NCBI GenBank assembly: GCA_977030845.1
Contig: OZ365115.1
Span: forward strand, 34,720,001-34,784,000
From: Fimbriosthenelais zetlandica
Lineage: Eukaryota
Length of the DNA stretch: 64,000 nt
Reading direction: 5' to 3'
Positions 48,001 to 54,000 of this stretch are shown piece after piece; position 1 is the first letter of the stretch; every line of letters starts with the position of its first letter. The position numbers are program-made.

Positions 48001-51000
48001 CGGATCATAGGTGATAATCACAGACAATCAATGTTAACGCATTATTCATTATCCTTACAAAATGTCTTAAACCATCTTTAATTCTTTAAAACAATACTTT
48101 AAGAACATTTTATGCAAGCGGCTTGCCCAAAGAGGCAAGAGGCATGCCTAAACGAAAAAAAATTGTCCATATTCCCAGCTCAAAGATAGTTCAATTCGAA
48201 ATTGTTGCAAATGAATACCTTTCAATGCGAGAGACAAATGAGTATTCTTGTTACTTGAGAGGAAATGAGTACTATTAGAGAGGCAATAGAGTATAGTTAT
48301 GGAGAGAATTCAGATTTGTTCATAGATATTGTGTTATCTTTCGGGATAAAATCAAGGATAGTAGAGTTACTAGGATATTGTAAATCCTTGATTTATAGAG
48401 TATCCTTGATAAAATCCCAATTAATACATTGTCTTCTTACTATATCCCTTGATCAGCCAGTTTTTTTTTAATATGACAGTTCTCCTTTGAAAAAAAATTC
48501 TAAATCTGAACAAATGAAATCAAAGTTGGCCCCCTGTGGGGAGGATTTGTGAAGAACGTTGAGGGAGGTCTTGTACTGTTTTCTCATCCACGCGTCTCAG
48601 ACGCATGCTAATCATGTTCATGACGTCATCACATGTTAATACCCATGTTAACTAAAGTCTGGTGTCAGAAATAGACACCTATATAACACCCACCTCTATT
48701 GTTCGGATTAAGACCACAAAAGAGGGATGAGCCGATGTTAGCTTTCATCTAATGCCATGAACAGCTTCCCTGGTTCTAAAAACGGGTCCTAGATTTACCT
48801 TGTTGCTCGGAATCTTTCATATTGAAGCTAAACTTTAATCCCAACATCTATATTGGTAAAAGAAGAGTATTTCCATAGATTTGGAAAAAGAAAAGTATAT
48901 TATTTATTAGAAACAAATAGATATTTAATTGAAGCAAGTTCCCAGATATTACTCTGAAATATTAATAAACTCTTCCTTGCTGTTCCTCATTTGTCGTCAC
49001 CTTCATTTTCAACACCTGGTTTTGAGCTGAGCCCAGCCTACCTATACATGTAGAAGTCATACAGAATTTTTAATAACCCGTTCCCGTGTATACATGTTTT
49101 CTCGGTACCCACACACATTATAATAAATATGATTAGACTGGGCCAGGCTTTCTGCCTTGCTTCACTCCGTCAATAACATCTATACAATATGAGAACTACA
49201 TTCCTCAAATGAGCTTTGAATATTGAATGAATGGACCATCTGCCAGTCCGGCATGTGTAGGGCATTTAGTCCTCATGGCGGAGAGCCCCTTCAACTAGCC
49301 AACCTAGAGAAGGGAGTCACTGAGACAGAGAGAGGAGAAAGACAGAGAGATAGAGACATAGACAGAGAGAGAAGGATAGGGAGAGACAGTGACAACGCGA
49401 CGTCAGGGAAGGGCAGACAGAAAGACAGAGAGACGTATAAGACATGCAGAAATAGAGACAGAAAGAGGGTGAGACTGAGTCTCAGACTCCATGGGACAGG
49501 GAGAGACGGAGATAGACAGATACACGTAGATAGATAGACAGAAAGAAACGAGAAGAGAGTGGTTGAGAAATAATGTAAATACACAGATAGAGAGCAGGAG
49601 AGAGAGAAACTGAGAGAGGAAAGAGAGAAACTTTGACATACTATTAGGAGAGAAACTGACAGAGAGGAGTGAAAAGGGAGGGGGAGATAAGAAGAGAGAG
49701 AGAGAGGGGGCATGTGTGGAGGGTACATTATGGGATGGCATTATGTTTGTACAGATGGCCCTCACATGTTTGCATGTTACTTCATTTCACGTGGAAGTAA
49801 CAAGTAGAGAATATGTCACTTGTAAATACTCTCCCCACCCTCCTCCACACCCCCCCCCCCCCGGCCTTCCTCCTCCCTCTCCCCCTCTGCCTTTCTCCTC
49901 GCCCTCCGCCTCATCATAGACGTAGATAGATGGACCGCCAACTCTGAAGTCTCGCGCATTGACTTCAATGCAAATAACGCCGGCCACGAGAAGCCGCGAG
50001 AAACAGGATAGTTGACTTCCGGTTACATTCTCACACGCTTGTGGGTGTGGTTGTACTCTGCTATTTTGTCGTAAATATGGATTACAATGAATTCAATGAT
50101 GTGTTAGAGGTAAGTTTCCACTTATTTATTTGATATCCAACCAGGGTAAGACAAACAGAGAAGTTGTTATATGATTTAATCGTATTTATGTGAGGTAAAT
50201 GCCGGCGAAGTTGCCGGGTCACGGACCTGTCTGCCACTAGTGTCAGGCCCACTGCCGCTGTCAGAGAGGGACACAGTTCCCAGCCCGTTCTAGTGTCTCG
50301 TCTAGCCCCTACTCAGGCTACTATAGGCTAGATAAAATATTCATCCCCTGGGTCCCCGACAGGACAGGGAGCCGATCATATTGTCTAAACTGTAGGCTTG
50401 TATTTGTACATCAAAATGTAAGCCTAGTCCTAGGCCCCTCCTTGCTTCGGGAATTGTGGTTGATAACGCTTCCAATGAAAAAAGGTTTCCCCATGTCTGA
50501 TGTAGGGGCTAATTTTTTTTTAAATGGTCAGGATTCTGAGGAAAATGCTATAATTCAAGTAGCTTAGGCCTGCATAGGCCTAGTCAGTTCGTGTAGGTAG
50601 GCTAGCCTCAATTGTATTATAAAGCATTAAAGGACCTAAATTATGGAATCATCTCCCAAATTATTTACGGGAAATAAAATCTCTCTATTCATCAAATAAA
50701 ACATTTCTTTATGTAACTTAAATCAACAATTAATACCGTAATAAGTGATAATGTTTCAACATATTCTAATATAATAATATATATCAATTAATGTTCAAAC
50801 CTCATGTTCTGTAAAAAGTCCCTGTATATGTAAAGGGAACATATAAGCCCTTCGAGGTTTCTGTTCTTATATAAATTTTATTTTTGTCATTTCCAACCTG
50901 TTAATTGTTACTTTGTTATTTTGAATAAAAAAATAAAAAATTCCGGGGGGGGGGGGGGGGGGGGTGGTAGGCTAATTTCAATCAGGCCATAGATAGGCTA

Positions 51001-54000
51001 GGCCTAACGCTATTATTAGGCTTAGTCCTATGCATAACCATCTGTATTGTAATACACTTGGCATTACATTTACTTTATCGGCCATAGATAATAGTTCTCT
51101 ATCATCTATACATAACCCATGCCATAGTTATAGCCATAGTCTAGGACGATATGGCCTATTATAGGTGTTTCTGCCACCACGTCTGATGATGTGCCTCGCT
51201 TTGAAATATATTAAAATGTTAGGCCCAATGATTTGATTTCCACGGCATTCCATTGTCACCCAAAAAATTTCTGTGTTGATTGCCAGTAACCTAACTGTTT
51301 GTAATTAACAATTTTAGGTCCTCACGGCAGGCCTACATGATTATAATCACTGAAACACAAGGCCAAGGTCTAGCAAAATGACGGTGAGTAAATGACATTT
51401 GGATAATTACAAAAATAGTGTCAAGTTGTAAGGTCCGCGGGGACCTACAGAATTTCTTAATTTAATATATATGGATACCCGTAATATTACTGCAAATACA
51501 TTAGTTCAATTTAACTATTTTAAGATCTTAAGGTTAAACTAGACTGCTGTTATATTGTTCATGAAAATATACAGTGAATGTTCATATTATTACGGATATA
51601 TGTAGTATTAATATTTCTTATTTTCATGATACAGAAGGATGGACTAGCATTGGATTCCACATTGGATAAACGAGTGCTAAACACCGGGTATTGGCAGTTG
51701 TGCCTGTGTCCAAGGATGAATATAATTCGAGTAGGCTAGAAAAATTCTTAGAAGATGTCAAAATAAGAGATCAATTGTTACTGTTTTTACTGTGTTGATT
51801 AAACTAGTAACTTTGATATATGTATCAGTTACAAATATTGAATATTTTTAGAATATCATTGTTTTATCACTTTGTCTTTGCGTACCGTACCTTGGCGCAT
51901 ATGATATATGAAGTTATTTTTTTTATTTATAGGCCTATTTTTTTAAATTTAACAATGAATTCGTCTGTGATATGAACATTTTCTGACAGATAATAAAACA
52001 TATAATGAAAAAATGGATAGCTTATAATTATTTCTTCACTTGAAGGGGCCGATCATAAAGGCTAGGCTAGAATATGCCTGAAAATCCTTGCTATGAATGT
52101 TTTGTATTATTAGGCCTATAGTACAGTACGTACTAATATAGTAACACTTATTATAGACAAATACCGGTAATTATTTAATATTTAAGTAGGAACATGGTGG
52201 TAGAAAAACCTAAAGGCTCTAGACCAGGTTTTTTCAGTAGGCCTACGGTACCGGTAGGCTTATCCTAGGACTAGGCTTCTTTAAATTTAGCTTAAATCAC
52301 CACCCCTGGAATAAGGGCTAGCCTAGGCCGCGAATATAGGCCTATATATAGCCTCGATTCGAAAAATGGCTTTAGGCCGCCTGGAGATTCAATTTCAGAC
52401 GAAGATACCGGTAGGCCTACCTTACTGGTACTTTCTTCATTGCCTTGTAAGTTGTAGGCCTAGCCCCATCCCAGGCCTAGCGGAAATATTTATAGAGTTC
52501 ACACTGGTTCAAACATCTGCTTGGATTAAGGCCGAGGCTATACCCGGTAGGCCGTAGGCTAGGCTTATAACCTATCGAGCTATAGGCCTACATATTCAGG
52601 CCCAAGGGCTAGGCAGACATGGTTTTAGTTTCGGCAACACTTTTTCAGAGGCATCAGAACTGATGAGGCCTGACAGAGTTGTTATGAAAGATAATATCCA
52701 GCATACCGGTACCAATTAAAATCTGAGGATTGAAGTAAAGATCTTCAGGATAACACAAGTAAATACTATCACCGACTAGGCCCTGATGTTGTTACACGGC
52801 CTAGCGGTAGGCTTACTGCTGTAGCCTAGGCCATAGATAATAGTAGAACTACTATTATCTATAGTAGAACTACTATTATCTATGCCTAGGCCTAAAGTCT
52901 GAATGTAGGCATAGTCAGTGACCGTGCATGTCAGTGACAGTGTAGACGGCTGTAGCCAGTGACACTCGCCTTACTCCTATATTTACCAAAGATTCAAGGC
53001 GTTTCCGCAATGATAATGCTTCCGCAATGAATTCCTTGGACGTCTTTACCCCGGAGCACCATTGAAATTGTAATTCTAACAATTATATCATTGTTTTTAT
53101 GGACCATCGTCCAGACACTCCCGCTTCGCAAAGCTAGTCAGCTGGCAGCCGGAAGTCAACTATCCTGTTTACAGGCCGCGCATGCGTGCCGCGCGCTCGA
53201 GGGAGTTGGCGGTCCATCTATCTACGTCTATGGCCTCATTGAGTCAGTTGCATTTATTAAAAAATACATTCTTTCTTCTAAATGGACTATTTTTGGAATT
53301 GGTGCACCAGATCTGACACAAATTGTCAGAGCCGACAGATGAGGAAACGGTCAGGAATATTGACTTTGATTTGAACTGACTATAATAGGTCTGTGTTATG
53401 CATCTGATAAAGCTTGCTTTGTAACTTCGTTATATTGTTTTTTTTAAATTGGCGCTGAACATATGCGCTATTGATATCAAAATAAAATCTAACTAAAGTG
53501 TTATAAAATAATTATACTTATACTTGAAGAAATAGGACTAGGGATGGACTCATTTCTGCATTCCCTATCATTTTAATAAAATCTTCCTGAAATGCCCCTA
53601 ACTTTTAAAAGTCCTGTATATTCCCTCTAGTAGGCCTATATTCTATACTCACGTTAAGTCAGATACATACAACCCTCAATATCATTCAGCGTCAAATTTA
53701 TTAGCAAAAACTCACATGGAAGTCTATTCTTTTATGTCAATGTTTATGAGAATTCCTGTAACAAATTGCACTGAGTAAACTGCCTAACCCCACACTATCG
53801 ACCTTAGAAAGAAAAGCTCCCCGGTGAAGAATATATCCCGTGTGTTTTACACATCAAGGTAATAAATTATGGAATAATCATGGTCTCTCATATGGTGTTG
53901 TCATCAAGCTGGTTTGTATGAAAAGACAATGTAATCATTGGTACAATTTGTACCAGGGTGATGTGACATCACTCCACAGGTCTGATGGTGGCTGGTGCTT

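What the first reader, a model, noticed from the sequence alone, without database searches (positions are those of the whole stretch)
49908..53239. Young P-like transposon with bipartite TIRs and a 7-bp TSD
Seen: perfect 30-bp outer and 22-bp inner inverted blocks are separated by unrelated spacers of unequal length (56 vs 32 bp), and there is a perfect GCCTCAT duplication. Established: CANRG ends with 7-8 bp TSDs characterise the P superfamily, and Galileo-type members use 7 bp. Inference: a recently mobilised non-autonomous member of a possibly undescribed family; an autonomous partner should exist elsewhere in the genome.
Basis: partly seen in the sequence, partly recalled or inferred. Interest (0 to 1): 0.68.

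Follow-up and report, generated by a model that had tools for sequence, protein, structure and literature searches.

The report
Non-autonomous cut-and-paste transposon, possibly P-like
This is a real 3.3-kb DNA transposon insertion in an invertebrate-like animal genome that has intact ends but no gene of its own; its ends look most like those of P elements, but that family assignment could not be proven here.

Summary
A perfect 30-nt terminal inverted repeat (49915-49944 / 53203-53232) and a perfect 22-nt inner inverted block (50001-50022 / 53149-53170) are separated by unrelated spacers of 56 and 32 nt. The whole is flanked by a perfect 7-bp direct repeat, GCCTCAT.

It is a genuine class II (TIR) transposon insertion. 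It is non-autonomous: none of 108 stop-to-stop ORFs of 20 aa or more reaches a Pfam cut-off.

Three features fit the P superfamily:
- the 7-bp duplication;
- the CATAG terminus;
- a second conserved site 63-108 nt from each end, at unequal distances.

These match the P element, Galileo/1360 and zebrafish Pdre2 as described in the papers read. [quoted passage not shown]

No second copy and no transposase could be found, because no eukaryotic genome collection was available. Superfamily, "undescribed family" and copy number therefore stay open. "Young" is consistent with the sequence but only weakly constrained.

An unexpected extra: the interior is packed with the motif TAGGC/TAGGCCTA, about 12 times the density in the rest of the window. 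Ordinary overall; a new member of a known kind.

The parts
49908..49914 (.). Left copy of the 7-bp target-site duplication, GCCTCAT
   Evidence: Read; identical to 53233-53239.
49915..49944 (+). Left outer terminal inverted repeat, 30 nt, starting CATAG
   Evidence: (I2) and 4: 100% complementary to 53203-53232; 0 of 100 shuffles gave a match.
49945..50000 (+). Left spacer, 56 nt, unrelated to the right spacer. Its last 20 nt are a 10-nt tandem duplication (49983-50002).
   Evidence: alignment score below the shuffle mean; tandem repeat GCCACGAGAA, 2 copies.
50001..50022 (+). Left inner inverted block, 22 nt, at +87 to +108 from the end. Inferred transposase-binding site. It contains an ETS-like CCGGAAGT core (motif name recalled).
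   Evidence: perfect match to 53149-53170 on the minus strand; 0 of 100 shuffles gave a match.
50077..50115 (+). Speculative remnant of a first exon: ATG plus 10 codons (MDYNEFNDVLE), followed by a consensus GTAAGT donor at 50110-50115
   Evidence: Read. No homology support; too short to search.
50081..50101 (+). Possible third inverted block (left), ATTACAATGAATTCAATGATG
   Evidence: score 22 against a shuffle mean of 17.8; 15 of 300 shuffles at least as high. Marginal.
50023..53148 (.). Non-coding interior ('cargo'), 38% GC, CpG-depleted, densely studded with TAGGC/TAGGCCTA
   Evidence: no coding signal; CpG o/e 0.61; motif enrichment.
53057..53074 (-). Possible third inverted block (right)
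53149..53170 (-). Right inner inverted block, 22 nt, at +63 to +84 from the end
53171..53202 (-). Right spacer, 32 nt, CpG-rich (contains GCGCATGCG)
53203..53232 (-). Right outer terminal inverted repeat, 30 nt
53233..53239 (.). Right copy of the 7-bp target-site duplication, GCCTCAT
   Evidence: Read.

Best explanation
A 3,318-bp non-autonomous class II (TIR, cut-and-paste) transposon inserted into a CT-rich low-complexity tract and duplicated 7 bp of target (GCCTCAT). I put this part at about 0.93. It has no transposase, so it must be moved in trans by an enzyme encoded elsewhere.

Proposed mechanism (inferred):
- The transposase's sequence-specific DNA-binding domain docks on the 22-nt inner block at each end.
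- The catalytic domain cleaves at the CATAG termini of the 30-nt outer repeats.
- The unequal distances between the two sites (56 and 32 nt) make the left and right ends non-equivalent, so that one left and one right end are paired. This is the argument made for P element (9 vs 21 bp) and for the 12/23 rule of V(D)J signals.
- Staggered cuts 7 bp apart in the target give the duplication.

The most likely superfamily is P (THAP-type transposase), at about 0.5-0.55. The confidence figure given is for the whole statement including P.
For: Shown here:
- Perfect 30-nt TIR, perfect 22-nt inner block and perfect 7-bp TSD, far beyond chance (0 of 100 shuffles each).
- Spacers unrelated. The two blocks are therefore kept identical while the sequence between them is not, which is what functional sites look like.
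- No coding capacity: 0 of 30 plus 0 of 78 ORFs at Pfam cut-offs.
- The terminal 200 bp have CpG o/e of 1.20 and 1.16, against 0.61 in the interior and 0.47/0.65 in the 2-kb flanks.

From papers (passages read):
- P element: 31-bp TIR, 10-bp transposase sites at 9 and 21 bp from the TIRs, 11-bp subterminal repeats, 8-bp TSD (PMC7776569).
- P THAP sites at bp 53-63 and 41-51; Galileo THAP footprint at +63 to +80, outside the roughly 40-bp conserved terminus (PMC3688188). Here the inner blocks are at +87-108 and +63-84.
- 1360 and Galileo make 7-bp TSDs (PMC3698922; PMC4168063).
- Zebrafish Pdre2 TIR starts CATACC and has 12-bp subterminal repeats (PMC10983969). The element here starts CATAGA.
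- No tRNA or Rfam gene is at the target, which argues against Dada.
Against: - No transposase and no second copy were seen, so the superfamily rests on one TSD, five terminal bases and architecture.
- The architecture is not exclusive. piggyBac Ifp2 has 13-bp TIRs plus 19-bp subterminal repeats at 3 and 31 nt (PMC12324416).
- By eye, only 6 of the first 11 terminal bases agree with Pdre2 (sequence printed). This fails Repbase's 1-to-11 rule for that family.
- The TSD GCCTCAT agrees with Galileo's GTANTAC consensus at 2 of its 6 specified positions.
- The putative 11-residue first exon has no cysteine pair such as opens a THAP finger (by eye).
- The CANRG rule is recalled, not found in print.
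- All searches for relatives were empty: window; protein collection; bacterial and archaeal genomes only; papers.
Confidence: 0.5

Rival explanations
1. A non-autonomous hAT-superfamily element from one of the minority lineages that make 7-bp rather than 8-bp duplications. It would be mobilised by a BED/hAT-dimerisation transposase that binds subterminal repeats.
For: [quoted passage not shown]
Against: - The hAT terminal consensus YARNG (recalled) needs a purine at position 3; here it is T (CATAG).
- hAT subterminal sites are usually many short repeats. Here no 9-mer or 10-mer recurs three or more times, and the only 8-mer seen three times (TTGACTTC) is within chance by my estimate.
- The typical hAT TSD is 8 bp.
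Confidence: 0.15
2. A TIR element of another or a not-yet-described superfamily, such as a MULE with a short TSD or something new. It would use the same two-site end recognition.
For: - Nothing seen here ties the ends to any protein.
- No relative was found in any search.
- The MuDR/IS256 group is quoted as making 4-10-bp TSDs (PMC10045372).
- The TAGGC-rich interior is unusual.
Against: A 7-bp TSD with a CA-start terminus is already covered by known superfamilies. MULE TIRs are usually longer and their TSDs 8-10 bp (recalled). Base rates favour a known superfamily.
Confidence: 0.2
3. A Dada-superfamily element (6-7-bp TSD).
For: Dada makes 6-7-bp TSDs (PMC3706591).
Against: - Dada elements have no terminal inverted repeats and insert into tRNA or snRNA genes.
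- Here there is a perfect 30-nt TIR.
- There is no tRNA (0 genes) and no Rfam family (0 matches) anywhere in the window.
Confidence: 0.02
4. The element is autonomous after all. A heavily spliced transposase gene of short exons would start at the ATG at 50077.
For: A good Kozak-like ATG, an 11-codon ORF and a consensus GTAAGT donor lie 163 nt from the left end.
Against: - None of 108 ORFs of 20 aa or more in the element has a Pfam match at cut-off.
- The interior is AT-rich and packed with short motifs and simple repeats.
- At 3.3 kb with this content, there is no room for a transposase of about 800 aa.
Confidence: 0.03
5. Chance inverted repeat or assembly artefact, not a mobile element.
For: Only one copy was seen. 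A TIR-like 18-of-20 match lies 396 bp upstream (D2).
Against: - 0 of 100 shuffles match either block.
- The exact 7-bp flanking duplication adds about 6e-5.
- The upstream match sits in an (AGATAGAC)n microsatellite and is low-complexity chance.
- No N runs lie near the element; the nearest is 33014-33261.
Confidence: 0.02

Closest known systems
Drosophila melanogaster P element and its internally deleted derivatives
   Same: - Perfect terminal repeats of about 30 bp (31 vs 30).
- A separate internal protein-binding site a few tens of bp inside each end, at unequal spacing (9/21 vs 32/56).
- Further subterminal inverted repeats.
- Non-autonomous copies moved in trans.
- Terminus starts CAT (the P sequence is recalled).
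Source: PMC7776569.
   Different: TSD is 8 bp, not 7. The spacers here are much longer. No sequence similarity was shown. No THAP transposase is linked to this element.
Galileo and 1360 (Hoppel), P superfamily, Drosophila
   Same: 7-bp TSD. The Galileo THAP footprint at +63 to +80 lies outside the conserved terminus, the same distance as the right inner block here (+63 to +84).
   Different: Galileo has very long, internally repetitive TIRs and a palindromic GTANTAC target. Here the TIR is 30 nt and the TSD matches 2 of the 6 specified positions. Both families are known only from Drosophilidae in the papers read.
Zebrafish Pdre2 / THAP9 element
   Same: A P-like element outside insects, with a short TIR starting CATA, a 12-bp subterminal inverted repeat and many internally deleted copies.
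   Different: 8-bp TSD, 13-bp TIR, spacers of about 400 bp. Only 6 of the first 11 terminal bases agree (by eye).
BuT5, the non-autonomous partner of a divergent P element (Drosophila repleta group)
   Same: A non-coding element classified as P only through end similarity to an autonomous partner. The similarity stops just after the putative THAP site.
   Different: About 1 kb, 3-bp TIRs, 8-9-bp TSD. Its partner was found; here none could be sought.
piggyBac Ifp2 (architecture only)
   Same: Bipartite ends: a TIR plus a perfect subterminal inverted repeat, at unequal distances (3 and 31 nt).
   Different: It inserts at TTAA with a 4-bp duplication. That is not the case here, so this element is not a member.

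Membership tests
Class II TIR (cut-and-paste) transposon | Terminal inverted repeats immediately flanked by a short direct target-site duplication | tested here: met
   30-nt perfect TIR plus 7-bp perfect TSD.
Class II TIR (cut-and-paste) transposon | Multiple copies at different sites, each with its own TSD | not testable with these tools
   No other copy in the 64-kb window. No eukaryotic genome collection was available. The scans of bacterial and archaeal genomes were empty, as expected.
P superfamily | Transposase with an N-terminal THAP finger and a P-type RNase H-like catalytic domain with a GTP-binding insertion, in the element or in its autonomous partner | not testable with these tools
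   The element encodes nothing recognisable. A partner could not be sought.
P superfamily | TSD of 7-9 bp (P 8; 1360 and Galileo 7; BuT5/P 8-9) | tested here: met
   7 bp, from one copy only. Literature values.
P superfamily | Termini 5'-CANRG (Repbase convention; recalled, not found in print) | tested here: met
   CATAG...CTATG. This is a weak criterion.
P superfamily | Repbase rule for non-autonomous elements: same TSD length and terminal alignment over positions 1-11 with at most 1 mismatch to a classified family (PMC4455052) | tested here: inconclusive
   Only one classified terminus was in hand (Pdre2, printed): 6 of 11 agree by eye and the TSD length differs. Repbase and Dfam themselves were not available.
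P superfamily | A sequence-specific transposase site separate from the TIR, 40-80 bp from each end, with unequal spacing at the two ends | tested here: met
   Layout only: inner blocks at +87-108 and +63-84, spacers 56 and 32 nt. Protein binding was not tested. The layout also occurs in piggyBac.
hAT superfamily | 8-bp TSD (a minority 7 bp) and YARNG termini (recalled) | tested here: not met
   7-bp TSD, and T at terminal position 3. Not decisive, because 7-bp hAT families are annotated in Repbase.
Dada superfamily | No TIRs; insertion into tRNA or snRNA genes; 6-7-bp TSD | tested here: not met
   A perfect TIR is present. 0 tRNA genes and 0 Rfam matches in the window. Family features.
piggyBac superfamily | TTAA target duplicated | tested here: not met
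   The TSD is GCCTCAT.
MITE | Short (a few hundred bp), high-copy, non-coding element | tested here: not met
   The element is 3,318 bp. Copy number is unknown.

The most novel reading that the evidence does not exclude
The element represents a P-superfamily lineage in a non-insect, non-vertebrate animal that makes 7-bp duplications. In the papers read, 7-bp TSDs were reported only for the Drosophila families 1360 and Galileo. Its ends would carry an exaggerated '12/23-like' asymmetry (32 and 56 nt between cleavage repeat and binding site), and its TAGGC/TAGGCCTA-studded interior would be family-specific cargo, for example an array of extra protein-binding sites like the THAP sites in Galileo's long TIRs. 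An even bolder reading, that it belongs to a superfamily not yet described, is not excluded either (about 0.07).
Probability: 0.3. Interest if true: 0.4.

Novelty: new member of a known kind. Interest (0 to 1): 0.25.

Why it matters
As it stands this is routine repeat annotation: one intact, probably recent, non-autonomous DNA transposon, possibly in an intron or upstream region of a PRDM16/MECOM-like gene.

It would matter modestly in three cases:
- The family proves active. Intact ends and an intact TSD suggest a live transposase somewhere in this genome.
- It extends 7-bp-TSD P elements beyond Drosophila.
- The two perfectly conserved sites with 32/56-nt spacing turn out to enforce left-right end pairing. 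That would give a natural comparison for the asymmetric-synapsis models drawn from P element and RAG.

The motif-dense interior is a separate curiosity that needs other copies to interpret.

Tried and rejected
- Other copies or fragments in the window. blastn with word 11 on the whole element and blastn-short with word 7 on the terminal 250 bp of each end found only the element itself and matches of 13 nt or less (E 0.19 or higher).
- The 18-of-20 TIR-like match at 49520-49539 lies in an (AGATAGAC)n microsatellite. Rejected as chance.
- The protein collection as a stand-in for a DNA search. The ORF running across the right end (53091-53339) found no candidate, not even itself. That collection therefore does not hold spurious ORFs of this genome, and I did not repeat the search with the left end.
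- Exact scans of 185,579 bacterial and archaeal genomes for the 25-nt outer and 22-nt inner sequences gave 0 and 0 hits. These are uninformative for an animal genome.
- Full-text search for 12-15-nt pieces of the ends found 3 papers, all unrelated primers or constructs judging from the listing.
- 'CANRG' in papers: 48 hits; the 10 listed are unrelated to transposons, several being fungal papers.
- Recurring subterminal k-mers. Only TTGACTTC occurs three times. By my estimate about 0.6 such recurrences are expected, so it is not significant.
- Organism. The PR-domain exon gave only 54-63% identical hits: scallop, acorn worm and priapulid PRDM16/MECOM-like proteins. The source is therefore an animal whose own proteome is not in the collection, and it is not human.
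- I ran no further search on the 11-residue putative exon. It is too short to give a significant score.
Paper supplements were not consulted.
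Full report
**What is there.**
A 30-nt sequence starting CATAGACG at 49915-49944 is repeated as a perfect reverse complement at 53203-53232 (pair I2).
- A 22-nt block at 50001-50022 recurs, perfectly inverted, at 53149-53170.
- The blocks are separated by 56 nt on the left and 32 nt on the right.
- Immediately outside the outer repeats lies GCCTCAT on both sides (49908-49914 and 53233-53239). The duplication cannot be read as 8 bp with any one-base shift of the boundary.
- Neither block matched anything in 100 dinucleotide-preserving shuffles of the window, even with three mismatches allowed. 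A 7-bp identity at fixed positions adds a factor of about 6e-5 (my arithmetic).
- Among the 25 longest of 69 inverted pairs found in the whole window, this is the only perfect one.

**Are the spacers really unrelated?**
- Yes. Their best local alignment scores 10, below the mean of 13.3 for shuffled versions; 297 of 300 shuffles scored at least as high.
- So two blocks are kept letter-perfect at both ends while the DNA between them shares nothing. That is the signature of two functional sites rather than of one long decaying repeat.
- The last 20 nt of the left spacer are a 10-nt tandem duplication. This explains part, but not all, of the length difference.
- Further in, ATTACAAT(GAA)TTCAATGRTG occurs at 50081-50101 and, inverted, at 53057-53074. 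The distances from the two ends are similar (166 and 158 nt), but 15 of 300 shuffles do as well. I list it only as possible.
- No 9-mer or 10-mer recurs three or more times in the terminal 320 nt of the two ends. The one 8-mer seen three times (TTGACTTC) is within chance by my estimate.

**Coding capacity.**
- The longest stop-to-stop ORF inside is 108 aa.
- None of 30 ORFs of 40 aa or more (E up to 1) reached a Pfam cut-off. Nor did any of 78 ORFs of 20-39 aa (E up to 0.1). The five sub-threshold hits are unrelated families.
- The element is non-autonomous.
- At 50077 an ATG in good context opens 11 codons (MDYNEFNDVLE) that end at a consensus GTAAGT donor. This could be the leftover first exon of the parental transposase gene. 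It is too short to search and has no other support.
- I built no spliced or joined gene model. The one real exon used in this work, the PR-domain exon described under "Setting", was searched on its own.

**Composition.**
- The terminal 200 bp have CpG observed/expected ratios of 1.20 and 1.16. The interior is at 0.61, the 2-kb flanks at 0.47 and 0.65, and the window at 0.52.
- The ends have therefore not suffered the CpG decay of their surroundings. Either the insertion is recent or the ends are kept by selection for mobility. The two cannot be separated with a single copy.
- With 59 of 59 comparable positions identical (30 + 22 + 7), the divergence between the two arms is below about 5% at 95% (my arithmetic). 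"Young" is consistent but weakly bounded.

**An unexpected interior.**
- Between the inner blocks, the pentamer TAGGC (or its complement) occurs 51 times, or 16.3 per kb. The rest of the window has 1.35 per kb, and dinucleotide shuffles of the interior give 8.0 ± 2.9 (maximum 18 of 300).
- The palindrome TAGGCCTA occurs 10 times, against 0.12 expected from shuffles and 8 in the other roughly 60.7 kb.
- The motif is densest at 52.0-52.9 kb. It is biased to one orientation (33 vs 18, ten of each being the palindrome). It is absent from the terminal ~400 and ~330 nt. It has no longer consensus around it.
- GGCCATAGATA occurs three times exactly, only inside the element.
- I have no tested explanation. 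Possibilities are a degenerate short-repeat cargo, or an array of protein-binding sites such as the THAP sites found in Galileo's long repeats (PMC3688188).

**Setting.**
- The target is a CT-rich low-complexity tract next to GA-rich microsatellites.
- An 18-of-20 match to the TIR core 396 bp upstream lies in an (AGATAGAC)n array and is chance.
- There is no tRNA and no Rfam family in the window.
- Of 127 ORFs of 80 aa or more in the window, one has a Pfam domain: a PR/SET domain at 63383-63703.
- Its best relatives are PRDM16/MECOM-like proteins of a scallop, an acorn worm and a priapulid, at 54-63% identity. It aligns to residues ~108-178 of those proteins, and no upstream exon was detectable in the window.
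- The source is therefore an animal, not human, whose own proteins are not in the collection. The element lies 10 kb upstream of that exon, possibly in an intron (inference).

**Relatives.** None could be found.
- The window holds no other copy or fragment.
- An ORF spanning the right end found nothing in the 5.8-billion-protein collection.
- Exact scans of bacterial and archaeal genomes were empty.
- The end sequences are not printed in any transposon paper of the library.
Copy number, family consensus, TSD logo and the autonomous partner all remain unchecked.

**Which superfamily? Evidence for P, from the papers (passages read).**
- P element has 31-bp TIRs, 10-bp transposase sites 9 and 21 bp further in, 11-bp subterminal repeats and 8-bp TSDs. 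The unequal spacing is compared with the 12/23 signals of V(D)J recombination (PMC7776569).
- The P THAP sites lie at bp 53-63 and 41-51. Galileo's THAP footprint is at +63 to +80, outside the conserved ~40-bp terminus (PMC3688188).
- 1360 and Galileo make 7-bp TSDs, and BuT5 with its P partner makes 8-9 bp (PMC3698922; PMC4168063).
- Zebrafish Pdre2 has a TIR starting CATACC, 12-bp subterminal repeats and 8-bp TSDs (PMC10983969).
- The element here has a 7-bp TSD, a CATAG start, and a second site at +63-84 / +87-108 with unequal spacing. It fits this picture well.

**Which superfamily? Why these features are not exclusive.**
- piggyBac Ifp2 has 13-bp TIRs with 19-bp subterminal repeats at 3 and 31 nt (PMC12324416).
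- The MuDR group is quoted at 4-10 bp (PMC10045372).
- The element agrees with Pdre2 at only 6 of the first 11 bases (by eye), and with Galileo's GTANTAC target at 2 of 6 specified positions.
- The CANRG rule is recalled and was not found in print.
- Dada (6-7-bp TSD) is excluded for practical purposes: it has no TIRs and targets small-RNA genes (PMC3706591).

**How it most likely works.** This is inferred, except where marked.
- A transposase made elsewhere binds the 22-nt inner block at each end through a sequence-specific domain.
- It pairs one 56-nt-spaced end with one 32-nt-spaced end and cleaves at the CATAG termini.
- It inserts with cuts staggered by 7 bp. Shown: the duplication.
- The inner block also contains CCGGAAGT, and the right spacer contains GCGCATGCG. 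These resemble common animal promoter motifs (names recalled), and the ends are CpG-island-like. A promoter role for the left end is possible, but it would not explain perfect conservation at both ends.

**Verdict.**
- This is a real, intact, non-autonomous TIR transposon (about 0.93).
- P superfamily is the best single guess (about 0.5-0.55), followed by an unclassified or other superfamily (about 0.2) and hAT (about 0.15).
- It is a new member of a known kind and of modest interest.

Noticed in passing
window 50023-53148: The interior of the element is about 12-fold enriched for TAGGC/GCCTA (51 occurrences, 16.3 per kb, against 1.35 per kb in the rest of the window). It holds 10 copies of the palindrome TAGGCCTA, against 0.12 expected from shuffles. 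The motif is densest at 52.0-52.9 kb, orientation-biased, absent from the terminal 330-400 nt, and has no longer consensus.
   Followed up: partly
window 52826-52891: A perfect 14-bp-stem palindrome (ATAGATAATAGTAG AA CTACTATTATCTAT) is followed by a perfect 21-bp tandem duplication (52840-52881) and bracketed by CCTAGGCC. GGCCATAGATA occurs three times exactly, only inside the element (50985, 51080, 52829).
   Followed up: partly
window 50924-50964: An A-rich stretch (AATAAAAAAATAAAAAATT) runs directly into a run of 20 G. It looks like a poly(A)-type tail or simple-repeat junction inside the element.
   Followed up: no
window 49510-49546: An (AGATAGAC)n microsatellite contains an 18-of-20 match to the TIR core (49520-49539), 396 bp upstream of the element. 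I judged it low-complexity chance.
   Followed up: yes
window 63371-63604 (+): A single PR/SET-domain exon of a PRDM16/MECOM-like gene (Pfam PRDM2_PR, E 5.7e-9). It is 54-63% identical to scallop, acorn-worm and priapulid proteins and corresponds to their residues ~108-178. No upstream exon was detected in the window, so the transposon may sit in an intron.
   Followed up: partly
window 17378-17436, 20924-20993, 26651-26696, 31896-31962: Four copies, in both orientations, of an unrelated dispersed repeat (79-87% complementary between pairs). Probably another transposable-element family.
   Followed up: no
window 40404-40437 and 45460-45493: A 34-nt inverted pair, 91% complementary and 5 kb apart, with no flanking direct repeat visible by eye. 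Probably two oppositely oriented copies of a repeat rather than one element.
   Followed up: partly
window 3260-3336, 12873-12931, 20156-20282, 49826-49912: Recurrent (CCCTC)n/(GGGAG)n-type low-complexity tracts. The transposon sits at the edge of one of them.
   Followed up: no
window 50001-50022, 53149-53202: The inner block contains CCGGAAGT and the right spacer contains GCGCATGCG. Both resemble common animal promoter motifs (ETS-like and NRF1-like; names recalled, not tested). The terminal 200 bp have CpG o/e of about 1.2.
   Followed up: no
window 11657-11792, 12498-12689, 33014-33261: Three runs of N (136, 192 and 248 nt), all far from the element. They were left untouched.
   Followed up: no
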